A DNA stretch of 64,000 bases from Dehalococcoidia bacterium (GTDB lineage: Bacteria; Chloroflexota; Dehalococcoidia; UBA2979): assembly GCA_965219085.1 (NCBI GenBank), contig OZ244720.1, positions 224,001 through 288,000 of the forward strand, in the 5' to 3' direction. The notes beneath the pieces are model-generated. The model was not told the DNA's origin, made no database searches, and was given only the letters and a program-made list of their open reading frames with translations. This document shows, one piece after another, positions 161 to 7,965 of this stretch. Position 1 is the stretch's first letter, and every line of letters starts with the position of its first letter. A program made the position numbers and the translations under genes.

Positions 161-778
161 ATGACCTACGAATCTGACATCGACGAGCAGGGTCCCGAGG
201 TCTCGATGACCGAGCCCGCGATCGAGCGGCTCAAGATGCTCATCGCGAACGCCGGCGACCCGCCCGTCTCCGGCATCCGCCTCCAGATCACCAAGCGCAC
301 CTCCCAGGGCTTCGAGCACTTGCTCTCAATGGTCGACGCGGGTCGCGAGCCCGAGGAAGACTACGAGCTCGACTTCGACGACCTCGCCGTCTTTGTCGAA
401 GGCGCCAACGCGGAGTCCCTCGACGGCATCGCCGTGCACTGGGAGTACAAGGGCGAGGGCGTCAACGGCTTCGAGTTCGACAACCCGAACCCGCCCTGGC
501 ATGACCCGAACGCGATGCGCATCCAGGAGCTGTTCGACCAGAGCATCAACCCCGGCATCGCCTCGCACGGCGGCTTCGTCGACCTGCTCGGGATCGAGGG
601 CAAGACCGCCTACATTCGCCTCGGCGGGGGCTGCCAGGGCTGCGGCATGGCCGACGTGACGCTCAAGCAGGGCATCGAGGTCGCCATCAAGGAGGCCGTC
701 CCGGAGATCGAGGAGGTCGCCGACGAGACCGACCACGACGCCGGCGCGAACCCCTACTTCCAGCCCGCGAAGAAGTAG
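161..778 (+). CDS. nfuA: NfuA-type Fe-S cluster carrier (degenerate A-type N-domain plus NifU C-domain)
   Basis: C-terminal INPGIASHGG...LGGGCQGCGMA NifU motif; GAGGA RBS before ATG 161 (ORF-track start at 11 is too far upstream). Confidence 0.85.
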   Translation: MTYESDIDEQGPEVSMTEPAIERLKMLIANAGDPPVSGIRLQITKRTSQGFEHLLSMVDAGREPEEDYELDFDDLAVFVEGANAESLDGIAVHWEYKGEGVNGFEFDNPNPPWHDPNAMRIQELFDQSINPGIASHGGFVDLLGIEGKTAYIRLGGGCQGCGMADVTLKQGIEVAIKEAVPEIEEVADETDHDAGANPYFQPAKK

Positions 779-2238
779 TGCCGGGCGCTCCCCAACAAGG
801 CAGCTCATCGCACGCATCACCGGCACGCGCCACGCGTGTCCTGCTGCTCTCGACGTATGAGATGGGGCACCAGCCGCTCAGCCTCGCGGCGCCCGCCGCC
901 GCGCTGCGCGCGCGCGGCCACGCCGTCGACGTGCTCGACCTCGCCGTCGACCCGCTCGACGATGGGCGCGTGCGCGCTGCCGACCTGATCGCGCTGTCGA
1001 TCCCGATGCACACGGCGTCGAGGCTCGCACTGCAACTCGTGCCACGGCTGCGCGCGCTGCGGCCCGACGCCGCGATCGCGCTCTACGGCCTCTACGCCGG
1101 GCTGCTCGGCGACCTCCGCGCGAGCGGGCTCGTCGACGCGGTGGCCGGGGGCGAGTACGAGCCCGCGCTGTGCGACCTCGCCGACCGCATCGCGGCGGGT
1201 GAAGGCCTCGACGCGCCGGCGCCCGACGCCGCATTCGCGCGCCAGCACTACCCCGTCCCCGACCGCAGCGGCCTGCCCGCCCTCGACCGCTACGCGCAGC
1301 TCCAAACCGAGGACGGCTTCGCCGTCGCCGGCTACGTCGAGGCGACCCGCGGCTGCGCGCACCAGTGCCTGCACTGCCCGGTGACCGCTGCCTACGACGG
1401 CCGGCTGCGCCTCGTCCAGCCCGAGACGGTGCTCGCCGACGTCGACCAGCAAGTGGAGGCCGGCGCCGCGCACATCACGTTCGGCGACCCCGACTTCCTC
1501 AACGCCGTGCCGCACTCGCTCGCGATCGCCGAGGGGCTGCACGGACGTCACCCCTCGCTGAGCTTCGACGTGACGACGAAGGTCGAGCACCTCCTCGAAC
1601 ACGCAGCGGTGCTGCCGCAGCTGAAGGACCTCGGCTGCCTCTTCGTCACCTCGGCGTTCGAAGCGACGAGCGACGAGGTGCTGCGCCAGCTCGACAAGGG
1701 CCACAACGCCGCCGACCTCGTCCCCGCCCTCGACGCGTGCGAGGAGGCGGGGCTGGCGGTACGGCCGACGTGGATGACGTTCACGCCGTGGACCACGGCC
1801 GACGACCTCGCCGACATGCTCGCCTTCATCGAGGCGCACGGGCTCGTCGAGCGCGTGCCGCCGGTGCAGTACGGGTTGCGGCTGCTACTGCCGCCGGGCT
1901 CGCCGCTGATCGCGCCGACCCACGCGCAGGGCCTCCTCGGCGCGTACGACGCCGAGTCGCTGACCTACGAGTGGCGTCCGCTGGACGAGCGCGTCGACCC
2001 GCTCCAGCGCACGATCGCCGGCATCGTCGCCGAGCAGCACGCCGACATCCACGCGGGCCACGCCCGCACGTTCGGCCTCGTGCGTGAGGCAGTCCTCGCG
2101 GCTACCGGGCAGCGAGCGCCGGCGACGGCCGCGTCGCCGCGCGTCCTCCCGGCGGCACCGGGCCTCACCGAGAGCTGGTTCTGCTGAGCGGAGCCCACCG
2201 CGGAGCAGTCTGCTTCGCTCGACCTCATCACCCTCTAA
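778..2238 (+). CDS. CUAEP-tail radical SAM (seleno)protein; TGA 2185-2187 probably Sec
   Basis: CxxxCxxC motif (RGCAHQCLHC); N-terminal LLSTYEMGHQP domain; reading through TGA gives WFC-U-AEPTAEQSASLDLITL ending at TAA 2236-2238; start overlaps nfuA stop (TAGTG). Confidence 0.85.
2188..2220 (+). promoter_or_regulatory. Candidate bacterial SECIS element
   Basis: Hairpin GCGGAGCA-GTC-TGCTTCGC (2200-2218) with a G-first loop about 20 nt downstream of the in-frame TGA. Confidence 0.6.
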
Positions 2239-2262
2239 CGAGGCGGCGTGACGGCTCGCTCG

Positions 2263-2622
2263 CTACTCCGCAGGCGGCGTCTCGTTGTGCACGAGGCCGA
2301 CGACGTTGCCGTCGGGGTCGGCGAACAGCGCCATCGTCACCATGCCGGGGATCGTCGTGATCTCCTGCACGGTCTTGCCGCCGAGCGCCTCGACTCGGTC
2401 GAGGTATGCCTGCAGGTCGTCGACCTCGATGTAGATGGTGACGCCGGGCTGCTCCGCGGCGGTGATGCCGCCGCCGATGCCCGTCTCCTCCTGGGCCTCG
2501 ACCAGGCCGTACTGCATCGGGTTATCGGCGTTGACCTCCCAGTCGAAGGCCTGGGCGTAGAACTGCTGGAGCGCGGCGCCGTCGGCTCCTGCGATATCGA
2601 AGTGCACGATGGGATTGGGCAT
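2263..2622 (-). CDS. VOC/glyoxalase-bleomycin resistance family protein
   Basis: PIVHFDI...FY..AFDW...YIEVDDL...GG...ALFADPDGNVVGL pattern; start at MPNPIVHF. Confidence 0.85.
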   Translation of the reverse strand: MPNPIVHFDIAGADGAALQQFYAQAFDWEVNADNPMQYGLVEAQEETGIGGGITAAEQPGVTIYIEVDDLQAYLDRVEALGGKTVQEITTIPGMVTMALFADPDGNVVGLVHNETPPAE

Positions 2623-3238: not shown

Positions 3239-4540
3239 CTACGAGAGCGCGCGTCGTCGCTCGCTTCCACCCTCGAGTGCCAGTTCCGCCACGCTGTCCT
3301 CGCCCTCATCGACGATGTCGATGCGGAGCAGCCCGTGCGCCTTGCGCAGCGACGCCTCGACATCCTCGGGGCGCTCGCCGCGGGCAAAGATGAAGCCGAG
3401 GTACTCGCTGCCCTCGGGCAGCGGGGTCACCGCGTGTCCCAGCGGGGTCGTGATGGCGATACCGGCCACCCCGCGCGCCGCCCTCGCCGCGGCGAGGCCA
3501 CCGACGCGGTTGAGGCGGCCCGCCTGCGGTATCGGGATCATCATCACGCCCGACGCCGCACTCGTCCGCTCGATGCTGGACGCGGGCGCGCCCACGGCGT
3601 GGCTGAGCAGCAGTGCTTCGAGGGTGACGCCCGCGCCGAACTGGAGCGTGCGCGAGCACAGCCCGCCGATGCTCCGTGCGGCGATGTCGACCGGCCACAC
3701 GCCCTCGTCGTTGATACGCATCTCGGCGTGCAGGGGGCCGTCGCGCAGACCGAGCGCGCGCGCGGCGTCGGCGGCCGTGCGGCGCACCTCCTCCTGCCGC
3801 TCCGCGGGCAGCCGCGAGGGCGTCACGTAGATCGTCTCCTCGAAGTACGGGCCGACGAGCGGGTCGGGCTTGTCGAAGATGGCGAGCACCTCGAGCTCGC
3901 CGTCGGTGAGCAGGCCCTCGACGGAGACCTCCTCGCCGGGGATGTAGCCTTCGATGAGCACACGGTCGTCGGTGCCCATGCACTCGTCGCGCACGGCGGG
4001 GTCGCGTAGCAGCGCGCGCAGCCGCTCGAACGCCACGACGAACTCCGCCTCGTCGTTCGCGCGGATCACGCCGCGGCTGGCGGAGAGCGAGAGCGGCTTC
4101 ACGACGCACGGCAGCGGCGCCTCGGCGGCCATGGCGCGTGGATCCGCGTCGACAGGCACGACCATCCATGGCGGCGAGAGCACTCCGCCGGCCTCCAGCC
4201 GCTGCCGCAGCAGGGACTTGTCGCGCGTGCCCGCGACGGCGTCGACGGTGTTGTGCGGCAGGCCGAGCCGCTCGGACGCGCGCGCCGCGGCGAGCGTCCC
4301 CGCGTCGTCGACCGCGACGACGGCTGCGAGCGGGCGCTCGATGGCGTATGCCTGGATCGCCTCGGCGGCGGCCTCCGGATCGCCGAGGGGTAGCGCGAGC
4401 GTGGTTCCTGGCAGGAACGACTCGACGGCGGAGCGCTGGTCCGAGCCGACTACCACGTCGACGTCGAGTTCGGCGGCGGCGGCCATGAAGTCGGACGCGC
4501 GGTAGCTGGCGCTGGGGATGAGCAGGAGTACGCGCGCCAT
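3239..4540 (-). CDS. ATP-grasp domain protein (amino-acid ligase-like)
   Basis: PCVVKPLSLSASRGV, LIEGYIPGEEVSVEG, HAEMR, DIAARSIGG motifs; GGAGG RBS before ATG 4540. Confidence 0.85.
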   Translation of the reverse strand: MARVLLLIPSASYRASDFMAAAAELDVDVVVGSDQRSAVESFLPGTTLALPLGDPEAAAEAIQAYAIERPLAAVVAVDDAGTLAAARASERLGLPHNTVDAVAGTRDKSLLRQRLEAGGVLSPPWMVVPVDADPRAMAAEAPLPCVVKPLSLSASRGVIRANDEAEFVVAFERLRALLRDPAVRDECMGTDDRVLIEGYIPGEEVSVEGLLTDGELEVLAIFDKPDPLVGPYFEETIYVTPSRLPAERQEEVRRTAADAARALGLRDGPLHAEMRINDEGVWPVDIAARSIGGLCSRTLQFGAGVTLEALLLSHAVGAPASSIERTSAASGVMMIPIPQAGRLNRVGGLAAARAARGVAGIAITTPLGHAVTPLPEGSEYLGFIFARGERPEDVEASLRKAHGLLRIDIVDEGEDSVAELALEGGSERRRALS

Positions 4541-4608
4541 CGGGCCTCCGGTGGTGGTTGCCGCCCTCGGTAGCATCGATTGTAGCGGGGCGACCGAAGG
4601 AGCACGGG

Positions 4609-5334
4609 ATGCTACAGGCCCACACGGACATCGGGCTCGTCCGCTCGACGAACCAGGACGTCGCGCTCGCCGAGGAACTGCGCGACGGCCGCAGCCTGCT
4701 CGTCGTCGCCGACGGCGTCGGCGGCCTCCCGGGTGGCGAGGTCGCCTCGCGCACCGCCGTCGACACGCTGGCCGAGGTCCTGCGCACGGCCGGCGACGAA
4801 CCGCCCGACGCGGCGCTGCGCCGGGCGTTCGCAGCAGCGAACGACGCAGTGCGTGTGGGGCAGCGGGGCGACCTCGCCCGCATGAGCACCACGCTCGTCG
4901 CCGCGCTCGTGCGCGGGGGCACGGCGTGGGTCGCCAACATCGGGGACAGCCGCGCCTACCTCGTGGCGGACGGCGAGGCGCGACAGCTGACGCTCGACCA
5001 CTCGTGGGTCGAGGAGGGGATCCGCGCGGGTGAGCTCGCCCCCGACGACCCGCTGGTCGCGCTCAACCGCCACGTGATCACGCGCGCCATCGGCCTCGAC
5101 GCCCACGCCGCCGTCGATGTCTTCGGCCCGTTCGACCTGCTTCCCGGCAGCGTGCTGCTGCTCTGCACCGACGGGCTGCACGGCGTGCTCGACGACCCGG
5201 CGATCGCCGACGTCGTCGCGGCGTCCGAGGGCGACTACGCGCGCGATCTCGTCGACGTGGTGCTCACGGCGGGCGCGCCCGACAACGTCGCGGTCGCCGT
5301 TTTGGCAGCGCCGGCATCGCAGCCGGGTGCGTAG
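4609..5334 (+). CDS. PP2C-family Ser/Thr protein phosphatase
   Basis: R..NQD, VADGVGG, NIGDSRAY, LCTDGL, DNVAV motifs; AAGGAG RBS. Confidence 0.9.
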   Translation: MLQAHTDIGLVRSTNQDVALAEELRDGRSLLVVADGVGGLPGGEVASRTAVDTLAEVLRTAGDEPPDAALRRAFAAANDAVRVGQRGDLARMSTTLVAALVRGGTAWVANIGDSRAYLVADGEARQLTLDHSWVEEGIRAGELAPDDPLVALNRHVITRAIGLDAHAAVDVFGPFDLLPGSVLLLCTDGLHGVLDDPAIADVVAASEGDYARDLVDVVLTAGAPDNVAVAVLAAPASQPGA

Positions 5335-5409: not shown

Positions 5410-5728
5410 ATGCCCAAGTACCTGGTCAAGGCGTCGTACAACCCCAGGGGCGCAGGGCCTGCTACAGGAAGGCGGAACCTCGCGACGCGACGCCCCCACC
5501 GCCTTGATCGAGTCGGTCGGCGGCTCGGTCGATACGTTCCTCTACGCGTTCGGCGGTGACGACCTCTACATCGTCATGGATGTGCCGGACAACGTGTCGG
5601 CAGCCGCGCGCGGCCTCGCCATCGGCGCGGCGGGCGCCATCACGTGGAACACCACGGTGATGCTCACGCCCGAGGAGATCGACGAGGCAGCCGGCAAGTC
5701 CGTCACCTACCGCCCGCCCGGCGCGTAG
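5410..5728 (+). pseudogene. GYD-domain protein, frameshifted near 5441-5450
   Basis: MPKYLVKASYNP (GGAGG RBS) continues in another frame as GAQGLLQEGG...YAFGGDD...TTVMLTPEEIDEAAGKSVTYRPPGA. Confidence 0.7.
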
Positions 5729-6519
5729 CCCGCTCGACCGGCGGGCAGCCCGTAGCGCGGGCGCGCCGAGGGCGGGAGCAACACCGCGGGCGGCCGGCGC
5801 AGCACGCGCGGCAGCCTGGGCCAGACGGCCCGGCTCAGCGCGCTGACGCCCTCGAACAGCGCGGCGCGGGCAGGATCCCACGCCATGCCGTACTCGTGGC
5901 GCAGCCGCGGCGGCAGCAGCCCCGCCGTGATCTCGCGCCACGGCACGATCAGCGGGCCGAACGGCGGCGCCGCGCGGCACAGCTCGCGCGCGATGGCCCG
6001 CGCCATCTCGCTCACCTCGAGGCGCTCGATCATCGCGTCGAGGTACGCGTTGAAGGCGTCGATGTCGGGTGGCAGCAGCGCCTCCGGGACGCCGAGCAGC
6101 CGCCCGACGAGCTTCGTGTCCTCGTAGTAGCGCGCCTCGCGCTCCGGCGGGAGCGCGCGCACGAAGCGCCGATGGCACTCGAGCGCGGTGTCGACGAGCG
6201 TCGCGTGCACCCACAGCAGCAGCTCGGGGTCGCGCGCCTCGTAGTCTGCGCCGGTGACGCCTCGATGCACCGAGTTGACGCCGCGCGCCGCGGCACGCAC
6301 CTCGTCGGCGTTGCCGAAGACGATGGCGAACATCGGGCGCAGCGTGCGCAGCAGCCGACCGAAGCGGTCGCCTCGCCACTCGCTGTGCTCGGCGACGCCC
6401 TGCGCTACGAGCGGGTGCGCGATCTGCATGAGCAGCGCCCGTCCGCCGCCGACGAGGACCACCGCCTCCCCGTCGACCTCGCGGATCGCCGCGCCGGGAG
6501 CGAATGGCAGCCCGTCCAC
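5707..6519 (-). CDS. Oxygenase MpaB / DUF2236 family protein
   Basis: GGRALLMQIAHPLVAQGVAEHS, LLWVHATLVD motifs; GTG start at 6519 with GAGG upstream. Confidence 0.8.
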   Translation of the reverse strand: MDGLPFAPGAAIREVDGEAVVLVGGGRALLMQIAHPLVAQGVAEHSEWRGDRFGRLLRTLRPMFAIVFGNADEVRAAARGVNSVHRGVTGADYEARDPELLLWVHATLVDTALECHRRFVRALPPEREARYYEDTKLVGRLLGVPEALLPPDIDAFNAYLDAMIERLEVSEMARAIARELCRAAPPFGPLIVPWREITAGLLPPRLRHEYGMAWDPARAALFEGVSALSRAVWPRLPRVLRRPPAVLLPPSARPRYGLPAGRAGYAPGGR

Positions 6520-6533
6520 GGCGCCTCGCCCCG

Positions 6534-7469
6534 CTAGAAGATCACGAGGGGGTTGACCGGGCTGCCGGTGCCCCCCGGCACGCGCAGCGGCGCCACGACG
6601 AGCAGGAACTCGTAACGTCCCTCCTCGGCGCACGCCTCGGCGAGCGGCTGTAGCAGCGCGTTGTCGACGAGCGCGACGCCGAAGGCGTAGATGACCGGGT
6701 GCACGGCCCAGCCGAGTTCATACTCGTTGGGGCGCGCGTCCATCATGTCCCACACCAGCATCGACACGTCGCGGTCGCGGATGTAGCCCATGCAGCTCGC
6801 GTGCAGGCCGGGTGCGGGCTCCTCGCGCTTGCCGAAGAAGAAGTCGGGGTTCGCGGCCTGGAACGCCTCGCGGCCGCTGTAGACGACGAGGGCGTCACCC
6901 GGCCCGACCTCGACGCCTTGCGCCTCCGCGATCTCCGCGAGCTCCGCGCCGTGCACCGGCCGGTCGACGGTCACGTGCGGCTCACCGCGGTGGCGAGGCA
7001 CGTCGAGCAGCACGCCGCGCGTGATGATGCCGGTCTCCCACGCCGTCACGTCGCCGAACGTCACGCCCTCGCCGGTCACGAACTCGTCGGGGTCGCGGCC
7101 CTGCCAGCCGCCGCGGTGGTCCCAGACGTGGCTCAGCGCGTCGAGGTGGGTGTGGTTGTGGCCGTGGTAGACGAAGCCGTAGTAGTCGACCACCGAGCCG
7201 GTGTCGTACGGGCGCGCGTTGCGGCGGATGAAGTGCTGCGCGGGCGTCGGGTTCGTCGGGCCGGGCTCCTTCGGGTACGGTCGGCTGATCGAGACGACGC
7301 GCCCCGTGCGCGCCATCCCGAGCGCTTCTACCCGCTTGGCTGCGTCGATGAGGTTGACGGCTCCGACCTGGTCGTCGTCGCCCCAGCGACCCCAGTTGTT
7401 GCGCTCGGTGAGCCAGCCGTGGACCTCGTCCTTCGAGGGCAGCGCGCGCCCGTCCTGCTCGTCCGCCAT
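6534..7469 (-). CDS. Cyclase family (kynurenine formamidase-like) metal hydrolase
   Basis: NNWGRWGDDDQ.G..N, HTHLDALSH, RGVLLDV, GGTGSPVNP motifs. Confidence 0.85.
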   Translation of the reverse strand: MADEQDGRALPSKDEVHGWLTERNNWGRWGDDDQVGAVNLIDAAKRVEALGMARTGRVVSISRPYPKEPGPTNPTPAQHFIRRNARPYDTGSVVDYYGFVYHGHNHTHLDALSHVWDHRGGWQGRDPDEFVTGEGVTFGDVTAWETGIITRGVLLDVPRHRGEPHVTVDRPVHGAELAEIAEAQGVEVGPGDALVVYSGREAFQAANPDFFFGKREEPAPGLHASCMGYIRDRDVSMLVWDMMDARPNEYELGWAVHPVIYAFGVALVDNALLQPLAEACAEEGRYEFLLVVAPLRVPGGTGSPVNPLVIF

Positions 7470-7587
7470 CGTGCCCCCTCGTCCCGCGTCCGCTTCGCCG
7501 GGCGCGATGGTAGCGCGCGCTGCCCTCGACCCCCAGCGGGCGGTACGATGTGCCGACGGACCCCTCCACGCAGCTGAGGCCCCGCCC

Positions 7588-7965
7588 ATGCCCGAGCAGT
7601 ACGCCGCCACCGACACACGCACGGGCCTCGAGGTCGTCGTGACGGGCGAGTTCCCCGCGGACCCCGACGACCGCGTGCGCATCGCCCGTACGACGACGCT
7701 GTTCACGCGGCTGATGTCGACGATCCTCGCGATGGACAACAAGACGGAGCAGCGCGAGGGCTTCCGGGCAGTCGAGACGCAGCTGGAGGTGGCGGAGGCG
7801 CTGCTGCGCCGCGACCTCGAGGAGGTCCAGCGGCTGATCCACTCGACCCTCGAGACGATGGGGATCACGGAGGAGCGGCTGGCGGAGATCGAGGCGGAGC
7901 TGCGGCGTCACCTGGAGGAGTTCGGTGGCCTCGACCTGCCGCCGTCGGAGCCCCCGCCCGCATAG
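7588..7965 (+). CDS. Hypothetical protein
   Basis: Host-like codon usage; GAGG before ATG; TACGAT upstream; helical acidic C-terminal half. Confidence 0.6.
   Translation: MPEQYAATDTRTGLEVVVTGEFPADPDDRVRIARTTTLFTRLMSTILAMDNKTEQREGFRAVETQLEVAEALLRRDLEEVQRLIHSTLETMGITEERLAEIEAELRRHLEEFGGLDLPPSEPPPA

What the first reader, a model, noticed from the sequence alone, without database searches (positions are those of the whole stretch)
2161..2238. Hidden selenoprotein: the radical SAM 'stop' is probably Sec in a C-U-A-E-P tail
Seen: the ORF ends ...TESWFC-TGA, but the frame stays open for 16 more codons (AEPTAEQSASLDLITL-TAA), and a hairpin GCGGAGCA-GTC-TGCTTCGC sits about 20 nt after the TGA. Known: bacterial Sec insertion uses such a hairpin directly 3' of UGA, and a radical SAM family with CUAEP/CCAEP tails exists. 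Inference: the enzyme carries a vicinal Cys-Sec pair on a flexible tail, suited to binding a metal or metalloid substrate, by analogy with the Cys-rich tail of the arsinothricin enzyme ArsL. Standard gene callers would truncate it.
Basis: partly seen in the sequence, partly recalled or inferred. Interest (0 to 1): 0.85.

Follow-up and report, generated by a model that had tools for sequence, protein, structure and literature searches.

The report
Radical SAM selenoprotein with Cys-Sec tail
The apparent stop codon of this radical SAM enzyme gene almost certainly encodes selenocysteine, so the real protein is 17 residues longer; the enzyme family is already catalogued, but what it does is unknown.

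Summary
ORF 778-2187 ends ...WFC-TGA and stays open for 16 more codons to TAA at 2236-2238. Read through, it scores 576 bits against NCBIfam NF040546, "CUAEP/CCAEP-tail radical SAM (seleno)protein" (cut-off 500), and the match runs through the tail. The single-sequence evidence is weak. In this 70% GC genome, 79% of long TGA-ended ORFs stay open for at least 16 codons, and the hairpin has z = -1.9.

The comparative evidence decides it:
- All 131 homologues examined carry W[F/Y]C-[Sec/Cys]-[A/S/V]EP. The variable codon is TGA in 82 and TGC/TGT in 49.
- A hairpin in a fixed register, 15 nt after the UGA with a G in the loop, covaries in the TGA forms and decays in the Cys forms.
- The genome has selA, selB, tRNA-Sec and a selD that itself contains a Sec codon.
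- Public databases hold close relatives cut off at WFC.

The family and its Sec are already curated, so this is a new member of a known kind. The function is unknown. The nearest characterised relative is ArsL. The gene travels with an L-amino-acid-ligase-type ATP-grasp gene and an NfuA-like or YggX-like gene. An ArsL-like reaction on an atom held by the Cys-Sec pair is my best guess (about 0.35).

The parts
161..778 (+). NfuA-like Fe-S carrier gene (degenerate A-type N-terminal domain plus NifU C-terminal domain). Its TAG stop (776-778) overlaps the GTG start of the radical SAM gene by one base.
   Evidence: Pfam NifU 76 bits; NCBIfam NfuA TIGR03341 104 bits, below its cut-off. The overlap is read. 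A homologue lies within the locus in 44 of 100 related loci.
778..2238 (+). Full coding sequence of the CUAEP-tail radical SAM selenoprotein: 486 residues, Sec at 470, including the TAA stop. GTG 778 is the only ATG/GTG/TTG start upstream of the conserved N-terminus, which begins at residue 21.
   Evidence: NF040546 576.4 bits (cut-off 500), protein 21-479 matching profile 1-467 of 468. Pfam B12-binding 23-124 and Radical_SAM 188-350. AlphaFold2 mean pLDDT 90.5.
1354..1377 (+). Codons for the radical SAM cluster motif C193-x-H-x-C197-x-H-C200.
   Evidence: C193, H195, C197, H199 and C200 are invariant in the 36-sequence alignment A3.
2182..2199 (+). Codons for Cys469, Sec470 (UGA at 2185-2187), Ala, Glu, Pro, Thr: the family's C-U-A-E-P motif.
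   Evidence: C469, position 470, A471, E472 and P473 are invariant in A3. The codon at position 470 is TGA in 82 and TGC/TGT in 49 of 131 homologues.
2200..2218 (+). SECIS-like hairpin: stem 2200-2207 with 2211-2218, loop GUC 2208-2210.
   Evidence: It sits in the same register (positions 16-34 counted from the U of UGA) as the hairpin that covaries in the TGA forms. There, 80.5% of cells pair, 31 cells carry double changes and 0 of 500 shuffles reach the observed values; slid controls give 25-59%. Cys forms give 52%. In the larger set all five inner pairs form in 72% of TGA forms against 10% of Cys forms.
2188..2235 (+). The 16 codons after the UGA (AEPTAEQSASLDLITL), which ordinary gene calls omit.
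   Evidence: The nearest relatives (L072-L075, L079) have the similar tail AEPT..QLAPLD.A.G[VI].
3239..4540 (-). L-amino-acid-ligase-type ATP-grasp gene, the conserved partner of the radical SAM gene. Here it is convergent and separated from it by a VOC/glyoxalase gene (2263-2622, - strand).
   Evidence: Pfam ATP-grasp_4, LAL_C2 and ATPgrasp_N. It is adjacent in 60 of 100 loci. An ortholog is present in 103 of 106 genomes that carry the radical SAM gene and in 28 of 295 that lack it (cross-tabulated by hand).

Best explanation
Window 778-2238 encodes a 486-residue B12-domain radical SAM enzyme of the curated CUAEP/CCAEP-tail family (NCBIfam NF040546).

Well supported. The UGA at 2185-2187 is read as selenocysteine. 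The hairpin at 2200-2218 acts as a bacterial SECIS element for SelB and tRNA-Sec. The product carries Cys469-Sec470 followed by AEP and 13 more residues. Gene callers stop at the UGA.

Inferred (my odds about 0.35). The enzyme works like its nearest characterised relative, ArsL. It would cleave SAM to a 3-amino-3-carboxypropyl radical and join that radical to a soft atom (a chalcogen or a metalloid) held by the Cys-Sec/Cys-Cys pair. This would give a 2-amino-4-X-butanoate amino acid. The co-inherited L-amino-acid-ligase-type ATP-grasp enzyme would then ligate it. The adjacent NfuA-like or YggX-like protein would supply or protect the enzyme's iron-sulfur cluster.
For: Family membership.
- NF040546 scores 576.4 bits against a cut-off of 500, and the match runs through the tail.

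Sec reading.
- All 51 sequences of the first set (50 loci plus the window) carry W[FY]C-[U/C]-AEP; the codon is TGA 30, TGC 15, TGT 6.
- All 80 loci from many phyla carry WFC-[U/C]-[A/S/V]EP: TGA 52, Cys 28.
- A tree of the 131 sequences needs at least 20 Sec/Cys switches.

SECIS.
- In the 30 TGA forms the hairpin at positions 16-22/28-34 pairs in 80.5% of cells, with 31 double-change cells; 0 of 500 shuffles reach this, and slid controls give 25-59%.
- The 21 Cys forms pair in 52.4%.
- In 81 distinct TGA segments against 48 Cys segments, all five inner pairs form in 72% against 10%. Mean hairpin energy is -10.6 against -4.5 kcal/mol. The loop G24 is present in 80 of 81 against 37 of 48.

Sec machinery in the same genome.
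- selA 543 bits, selB 301 bits, and selD 366 bits with one in-frame TGA at its ...CGGU-AGK... loop.
- tRNA-Sec 73.7 bits, anticodon TCA.
- Of 48 TGA-form genomes in the phylum sample, 47 have selA.

Truncation in databases.

Mechanism.
- ArsL (NF040542) is by far the next-best family: 299.9 bits over residues 21-411, against 51 bits or less for all others.
- ArsL makes an ACP radical and binds As(III) through its C-terminal RCCLKC cysteines (passages read).
- A review reports that an ArsL tail variant named MCCA was the most active (passage read).
- The ligase partner is adjacent in 60 of 100 loci and present in 103 of 106 carrier genomes.
- An Nfu (44) or a YggX (23) homologue lies in 66 of 100 loci; both occur in only 1.
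- One clade of Cys forms lengthens the tail with further Cys-Cys pairs.
Against: Against, or limiting, the Sec reading.
- There is no protein-level evidence of Sec insertion.
- On this sequence alone the open frame is ordinary (79% of TGA-ended ORFs).
- The hairpin is only modestly better than shuffles (z -1.92), and the minimum-energy fold is another stem.
- Rfam has no matching family.

Against the mechanism.
- The ArsL model scores below its cut-off (299.9 against 450), and its match ends at residue 411, so the tails are not homologous by that model.
- No true ArsL was found in 401 genomes of the phylum sample.
- No arsenic methyltransferase or permease is among the gene clusters shared by 6 or more of the 100 loci.
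- The family is in 106 of 401 sampled genomes of the phylum and in many other phyla. That fits a housekeeping role better than an arsenical antibiotic.
- The AlphaFold model has the Cys-Sec pair in a confidently placed segment (pLDDT 87), not a floppy tail. I could not measure its distance to the cluster.
- Only two extra invariant Cys/Sec positions exist.
- The phylum counts include unpublished genomes, and kin are not independent.
Confidence: 0.88

Rival explanations
1. The Cys-Sec pair is a redox arm, not a substrate-binding site. It would be a selenenylsulfide/selenolthiol couple on the C-terminal segment, working like the Gly-Cys-Sec-Gly end of mammalian thioredoxin reductase (recalled, not from a call). 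It would deliver a hydrogen atom or two electrons to a radical intermediate of an otherwise ordinary 5'-deoxyadenosyl radical SAM reaction.
For: Sec and Cys interchange at least 20 times on the tree, as expected for a redox or nucleophilic residue. There are only two extra invariant Cys/Sec positions, too few for an auxiliary cluster. The pair lies in a confidently modelled segment. The closest solved folds are 5'-dA-type enzymes: AprD4 (Foldseek E 3e-17) and OxsB.
Against: The nearest sequence family is ArsL, whose tail cysteines bind substrate rather than shuttle electrons. The extra Cys-Cys pairs in some Cys-form tails look more like ligand sites than a single redox couple. Nothing here tests redox function.
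Confidence: 0.3
2. The enzyme inserts sulfur or selenium. The tail would carry a persulfide or selenopersulfide, or the enzyme would consume an iron-sulfur cluster as LipA and BioB do, and the adjacent NfuA-like or YggX-like protein would rebuild it.
For: An Nfu or YggX homologue lies in 66 of 100 loci, and the two almost never occur together, which suggests a special iron-sulfur demand. Lipoyl synthase, MoaA and aconitase genes recur nearby in small groups of loci. NfuA's role in restoring LipA's cluster is recalled, not from a call.
Against: No auxiliary-cluster cysteines are conserved. The lipoate and MoaA neighbours occur in only 7-8 of 100 loci, probably close kin. Nfu or YggX next to any oxygen-sensitive radical SAM enzyme would be unremarkable.
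Confidence: 0.15
3. The TGA is a real stop. The protein ends at Cys469, and the downstream similarity and hairpin are incidental, for example a terminator or leftover sequence.
For: The open frame after TGA is common in this genome (79%). The single-sequence fold is not strongly better than shuffles. Databases list the truncated form.
Against: All 82 TGA-form homologues keep [A/S]EP in frame after the TGA, and the 49 Cys forms have Cys there. The hairpin covaries in TGA forms and decays in Cys forms. The NF040546 profile aligns through the tail. The full Sec machinery is present.
Confidence: 0.03

Closest known systems
NCBIfam NF040546, CUAEP/CCAEP-tail radical SAM (seleno)protein. It is called 'uncharacterized' in the 2022 bioRxiv preprint 10.1101/2022.07.06.499078 (passage read).
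   Same: The score is above the curated cut-off, the match is full length including the tail, the domains are the same (B12-binding-like plus radical SAM), and the C-U-A-E-P motif is the same.
   Different: Nothing that I could test. This copy has a 20-residue N-terminal extension, if GTG 778 is the start, and a tail of its own lineage's type.
ArsL, the arsinothricin biosynthesis radical SAM enzyme (NCBIfam NF040542, RCCLKC-tail family).
   Same: It is the closest characterised family: 299.9 bits over residues 21-411. It has the same two-domain build and a C-terminal segment with a vicinal Cys pair. In ArsL that segment binds the As(III) that receives the ACP radical.
   Different: The score is below ArsL's cut-off of 450. 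The tail motif differs (F-C-U/C-A-E-P, not R-C-C-L-K-C) and has two thiol/selenol positions, not three. Selenocysteine is used. The gene partners are an ATP-grasp ligase and Nfu or YggX, not ArsM and ArsQ. The distribution is far wider. No ArsL was found in the 401 sampled genomes of this phylum.
Other Cys-Sec (CU) selenoproteins listed in the same preprint: some HgcA, SAO-locus proteins, MerT-family members and KCU-star.
   Same: A vicinal Cys-Sec pair, which that author takes as a hint of contact with a heavy atom.
   Different: The folds and contexts are unrelated. The resemblance is the dipeptide only.
Escherichia coli fdhF-type bacterial SECIS (recalled, not from a call).
   Same: A hairpin just downstream of the UGA, an apical loop about 20 nt from the UGA, and G then U in the loop. 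G24 is present in 80 of 81 TGA forms and U25 in 66 of 81.
   Different: The stem is short (5 to 8 pairs). I saw no conserved bulged U. It lies inside the last 16 codons of the gene, so its sequence also encodes the conserved T-x-x-Q-[FL] part of the tail.

Membership tests
NCBIfam NF040546 CUAEP/CCAEP-tail radical SAM (seleno)protein | Whole-protein score above the curated cut-off (500 bits) | tested here: met
   576.4 bits, E 4e-173, protein 21-479 on profile 1-467 of 468. 570.1 bits with 1 TGA inside in the genome search.
NCBIfam NF040546 CUAEP/CCAEP-tail radical SAM (seleno)protein | C-terminal C-[U/C]-A-E-P motif | tested here: met
   W467-F-C469-U470-A-E-P473. These columns are invariant in alignment A3.
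NCBIfam NF040546 CUAEP/CCAEP-tail radical SAM (seleno)protein | Radical SAM CxxxCxxC cluster motif and an N-terminal B12-binding-like domain | tested here: met
   C193/C197/C200 are invariant. Pfam Radical_SAM 47 bits and B12-binding 34 bits, both above their cut-offs. The fold is nearest to AprD4, OxsB and TsrM.
Bacterial selenoprotein gene | In-frame UGA aligned with Cys in orthologues, with conserved coding sequence after it | tested here: met
   TGA in 82 and TGC/TGT in 49 of 131; [A/S/V]EP follows in all 131.
Bacterial selenoprotein gene | SECIS hairpin shortly downstream of the UGA with a G in the apical loop (criteria recalled from the bSECISearch description, not from a call) | tested here: met
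   Hairpin at 2200-2218 with loop GUC. The family-wide hairpin shows compensatory changes in TGA forms only. No Rfam family matches.
Bacterial selenoprotein gene | selA, selB, selC (tRNA-Sec) and selD in the same genome | tested here: met
   All are over the curated cut-offs, and the tRNA anticodon is TCA.
Bacterial selenoprotein gene | Selenium actually incorporated at the UGA | not testable with these tools
   Needs 75Se labelling or mass spectrometry.
ArsL (NCBIfam NF040542, RCCLKC-tail) | Score above the curated cut-off (450 bits) | tested here: not met
   299.9 bits, and the match ends at residue 411.
ArsL (NCBIfam NF040542, RCCLKC-tail) | C-terminal RCCLKC motif with three cysteines that bind As(III) | tested here: not met
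   The tail is FCUAEP... with two Cys/Sec positions. The ArsL motif is taken from the passages read.
ArsL (NCBIfam NF040542, RCCLKC-tail) | Placement in an ars cluster with arsM and arsQ (abstract of PMC8552651, seen in the listing) | tested here: not met
   The window neighbours are Nfu-like, VOC, ATP-grasp ligase and PP2C phosphatase genes. No such gene is among the clusters shared by 6 or more of 100 loci, of which I annotated 15 by Pfam or NCBIfam. I ran no dedicated ArsM search.
ArsL (NCBIfam NF040542, RCCLKC-tail) | Cleavage of SAM to methylthioadenosine and an ACP radical | not testable with these tools
   Needs an enzyme assay.

The most novel reading that the evidence does not exclude
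The three-gene module is an unrecognised, widespread pathway. It consists of an NfuA-like or YggX-like gene, an L-amino-acid-ligase-type ATP-grasp gene, and the Cys-Sec-tailed ArsL-like radical SAM gene. It occurs in soil and subsurface bacteria of many phyla. The second known radical SAM enzyme to make a 3-amino-3-carboxypropyl radical would build a carbon-heteroatom bond on an atom held by a Cys-Sec pair. That atom would be selenium, sulfur, or a metalloid other than arsenic. The resulting new amino acid would then be ligated into a dipeptide or conjugate.
Probability: 0.25. Interest if true: 0.8.

Novelty: new member of a known kind. Interest (0 to 1): 0.3.

Why it matters
For annotation: the gene should be recorded as 778-2238 with Sec at codon 470. 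The same correction applies to many database entries that end at ...WFC; 7 of the 8 close relatives that I fetched do.

For biology: the family is large. At least 7243 database proteins score E <= 1e-30, and 106 of 401 sampled genomes of this phylum carry it. It is uncharacterised, and it is the closest relative of the only canonical-fold radical SAM enzyme known to make an ACP radical.

The gene partners documented here give concrete experiments. They are an L-amino-acid-ligase-type enzyme present in 103 of 106 carrier genomes, and an Nfu or YggX gene in 66 of 100 loci. I found them in no paper; the only paper in the library that names the family calls it uncharacterised. The repeated Sec/Cys switching marks position 470 as a working residue.

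Tried and rejected
- Rfam (evalue mode, window 2100-2320) gave only two chance-level matches, E 4.5 and 8.4, and no SECIS family.
- Exact look-up of the truncated product 778-2184 found no such sequence in the collection, so it says nothing about truncation. I used instead.
- The search for true ArsL (NF040542, E <= 1e-125) in 401 genomes of the phylum found none, and the control genomes did not ring either. I therefore could not align an ArsL sequence with this family.
- PDB by sequence profile: the best match is 40.8 bits (9ccb) and no ArsL-like structure is present. Foldseek gave general B12-domain radical SAM folds only.
- One search flagged in-frame TGA or TAG inside some ATP-grasp ligase matches, which raised the idea of a Sec-containing ligase. 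I fetched five such genes. In each, the TGA is simply the gene's stop and the match ran past it. Idea rejected.
- DUF169, a neighbour in 19 of 100 loci, appears in the literature only in passing: a table in a selenium-genomics paper and a figure legend next to hgcA in Nitrospina. I drew no functional lead from it.
- The VOC/glyoxalase gene between the radical SAM and ligase genes has a match in only 2 of 50 loci. I do not count it as part of the module. One database relative (P0110) has a VOC domain in front of the radical SAM domains.
- I ran no complex prediction, because I make no binding claim.
- Supplementary files of papers were closed and I did not ask for them. The ArsL alignments in the supplements of the two preprints might bear on tail homology.
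Full report
WHAT IS IN THE SEQUENCE. The + strand ORF 778-2187 ends ...APGLTESWFC and then TGA (2185-2187). The frame continues for 16 codons, AEPTAEQSASLDLITL, to TAA at 2236-2238. Its 5' arm starts 12 nt after the TGA and its loop starts 20 nt after it.

Taken alone, these features prove little. In this 70% GC genome, 79% of 462 long TGA-ended ORFs stay open for at least 16 more codons. The 61-nt fold has z = -1.92, with 8 of 200 shuffles as good. The minimum-energy fold is another stem that begins at the UGA, because GCGGAGC occurs twice.

WHAT THE GENE IS. Read with TGA as Sec, the 486-residue product scores 576.4 bits against NCBIfam NF040546, 'CUAEP/CCAEP-tail radical SAM (seleno)protein' (cut-off 500). 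It is aligned from residue 21 to 479, which is profile position 467 of 468, so the alignment runs through the tail. Pfam finds a B12-binding-like domain (23-124) and the radical SAM core (188-350). An AlphaFold2 model built on 36 homologues is confident: mean pLDDT 90.5 and pTM 0.89. Its nearest solved folds are AprD4, OxsB and TsrM. No solved structure is close in sequence; the best is 40.8 bits.

IS THE TGA SELENOCYSTEINE? I gathered homologues in two ways.

First, I searched 401 genomes of the same phylum with the family model. A match was found in 106 of them, 103 above the cut-off. By my hand count of the table, 49 of the 107 matches (48 genomes) contain exactly one in-frame TGA. In the 30 best loci, 20 further loci that I fetched and the window, all 51 sequences carry W[F/Y]C-[U/C]-AEP. 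The variable codon is TGA in 30, TGC in 15 and TGT in 6.

Second, a scan of one genome per species across all prokaryotes returned at least 577 relatives. The best came from Dehalococcoidia and Tepidiformaceae assemblies. Others came from Acidobacteriota, Actinomycetota, Gemmatimonadota, Rokubacteria, Nitrospirota and Proteobacteria. All 80 kept loci have WFC-[U/C]-[A/S/V]EP, with TGA in 52 and Cys in 28.

So the residues after the TGA are conserved in frame in every TGA form, and Cys stands opposite the TGA in the other forms. A FastTree tree of the 131 sequences was built without the Sec position and the tail. It needs at least 20 Sec/Cys changes. The two sets share a few genomes.

THE SECIS ELEMENT. 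The tail has a fixed length for its first eight codons, so the downstream DNA aligns without gaps. I tested a hairpin pairing positions 16-22 with 28-34, counted from the U of UGA.

- In the 30 TGA forms, 80.5% of cells pair and 31 cells carry changes on both sides. None of 500 shuffles reaches these values. Sliding the partner by 1-3 columns gives 25-59%.
- In the 21 Cys forms, 52.4% of cells pair.
- Over all distinct segments, the five inner pairs all form in 72% of 81 TGA forms and in 10% of 48 Cys forms.
- Mean hairpin energy is -10.6 against -4.5 kcal/mol.
- The loop G at position 24 is present in 80 of 81 TGA forms and 37 of 48 Cys forms.

Related sequences are not independent, so these are descriptive contrasts, not probabilities. 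The window's hairpin sits exactly in this register (2200-2218) with one extra A-U pair and a GUC loop. Rfam holds no matching family.

SEC MACHINERY. The window's genome is one contig of 3.31 Mb. It has:
- selA at 543 bits;
- selB at 301 bits;
- selD at 366 bits, with one in-frame TGA at its ...CGGU-AGK... loop;
- a tRNA-Sec at 73.7 bits, with anticodon TCA by ARAGORN.

In the phylum sample, selA was found in 308 of 401 genomes. By hand cross-tabulation it is in 47 of the 48 TGA-form genomes. The exception is a 340-contig draft. It is also in 54 of the 58 genomes whose match has no TGA. These tallies include a few unpublished genomes, named under 'tried and rejected'.

IS IT HIDDEN, AND IS IT NEW? 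The eight close database relatives that I fetched include seven that end at ...WFC. [quoted passage not shown] The eighth is a natural Cys form with the full tail. Gene callers therefore do truncate the protein.

The family and its selenocysteine are already curated in NCBIfam. [quoted passage not shown] Full-text searches for CUAEP and CCAEP found no other relevant paper. The finding is a correct re-discovery: a new member of a known kind.

WHAT IT MAY DO. The next-best family by far is ArsL: NF040542 at 299.9 bits over residues 21-411, below its cut-off of 450. All other families score 51 bits or less.

From the passages I read, ArsL cleaves SAM to methylthioadenosine and a 3-amino-3-carboxypropyl (ACP) radical. 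It joins that radical to As(III) held by the three cysteines of its C-terminal RCCLKC motif. A review reports that a tail variant named MCCA was the most active. The analogy with a Cys-Sec pair near the C-terminus is therefore reasonable. It is still only an analogy, for four reasons:
- the tails do not align;
- no arsenic genes accompany this family;
- ArsL itself was not found in the 401 sampled genomes;
- the family is far more widespread than ArsL.

GENE NEIGHBOURHOOD. This is the new information I can add. In the window, an NfuA-like gene (161-778) overlaps the radical SAM start by one base. An L-amino-acid-ligase-type ATP-grasp gene (3239-4540, - strand) lies just downstream, beyond a VOC gene. 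I examined 100 related loci with at least 4 kb of flank, where the contigs allow it:
- the ligase is present in 60, usually within 100 nt and often on the same strand;
- an Nfu homologue is present in 44;
- a YggX (Fe(2+)-trafficking) homologue is present in 23;
- both Nfu and YggX occur in only 1, and either one in 66;
- a DUF169 gene is present in 19;
- none of the four is present in 24.

Across the phylum sample the ligase ortholog is in 131 of 401 genomes. It is in 103 of the 106 genomes that carry the radical SAM gene and in 28 of the 295 that lack it (hand cross-tabulation).

A ligase for free amino acids as the constant partner fits an amino-acid product, such as an ACP-derived 2-amino-4-X-butanoate. 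The interchangeable Nfu or YggX partner points to a special need to supply or protect an iron-sulfur cluster. One clade of Cys forms extends the tail with one or two further Cys-Cys pairs, which fits a ligand-binding role.

MECHANISM ODDS. I put about 0.35 on ArsL-like chemistry at an atom held by the Cys-Sec pair. I put about 0.3 on a redox or hydrogen-donor role for the pair in an ordinary 5'-deoxyadenosyl enzyme. I put about 0.15 on sulfur or selenium insertion. The model places residues 461-470 at pLDDT 87, 471-480 at 63, and only 479-486 below 50. The pair is therefore probably docked on the enzyme, not on a free tail. I could not measure its distance to the cluster.

VERDICT. The selenoprotein reading is strongly supported, at about 0.95 for Sec itself. 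The family is already known, and the function is open. Interest is modest for the finding as stated. It is higher for the untested pathway that the conserved partners suggest.

Noticed in passing
G000:C1:475684-476619 (locus L010:1441-2500), outside the window: The genome's selD has an in-frame TGA at the ...CGGU-AGK... glycine-rich loop, so selenophosphate synthetase is itself a selenoprotein here.
   Followed up: partly
Loci L052-L151 (neighbourhoods of the radical SAM gene): NfuA-like (44 loci) and YggX-like Fe(2+)-trafficking genes (23 loci) sit beside the ligase and radical SAM pair. They almost never occur together (1 locus), as if they were interchangeable.
   Followed up: partly
L023, L024, L025, L027, L029, L033, L045 (tails after the CCAEP motif): One clade of Cys forms has tails of 33-37 residues with one or two additional Cys-Cys pairs (for example ...SCCG...GCCS...), whereas most other tails in that set are 10-26 residues.
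   Followed up: no
L096, L103, L109, L139, L142: Motif variants occur: C-U-S-E-P (three loci), C-C-S-E-P and C-C-V-E-P. The Ala of CUAEP is therefore not strictly invariant across phyla.
   Followed up: no
window 2188-2194 and 2200-2206: GCGGAGC occurs twice. The 3' arm GCTTCGC can pair with either copy, so the minimum-energy fold is a 10-pair stem that includes the UGA itself, not the family-wide hairpin.
   Followed up: partly
window 2263-2622 (- strand) and database protein P0110: A VOC/glyoxalase-fold gene lies between the radical SAM and ligase genes. One 615-residue database relative has a VOC domain fused in front of the radical SAM domains, and it too ends at WFC. The VOC gene has a match in only 2 of 50 related loci.
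   Followed up: partly
window 4558-5331 (+), 5707-6630 (-), 6534-7865 (-): Beyond the ligase lie a PP2C-type Ser/Thr phosphatase (Stp1-like, 193 bits, below its cut-off), an MpaB/Lcp-family oxygenase-like protein and a putative cyclase-domain protein. I saw no link to the finding.
   Followed up: no
G000:C1:206202-207533, about 17 kb upstream of the window's start: selA lies only about 17 kb from the radical SAM selenoprotein gene, whereas selB, selD and tRNA-Sec are far away. This is probably coincidence.
   Followed up: no
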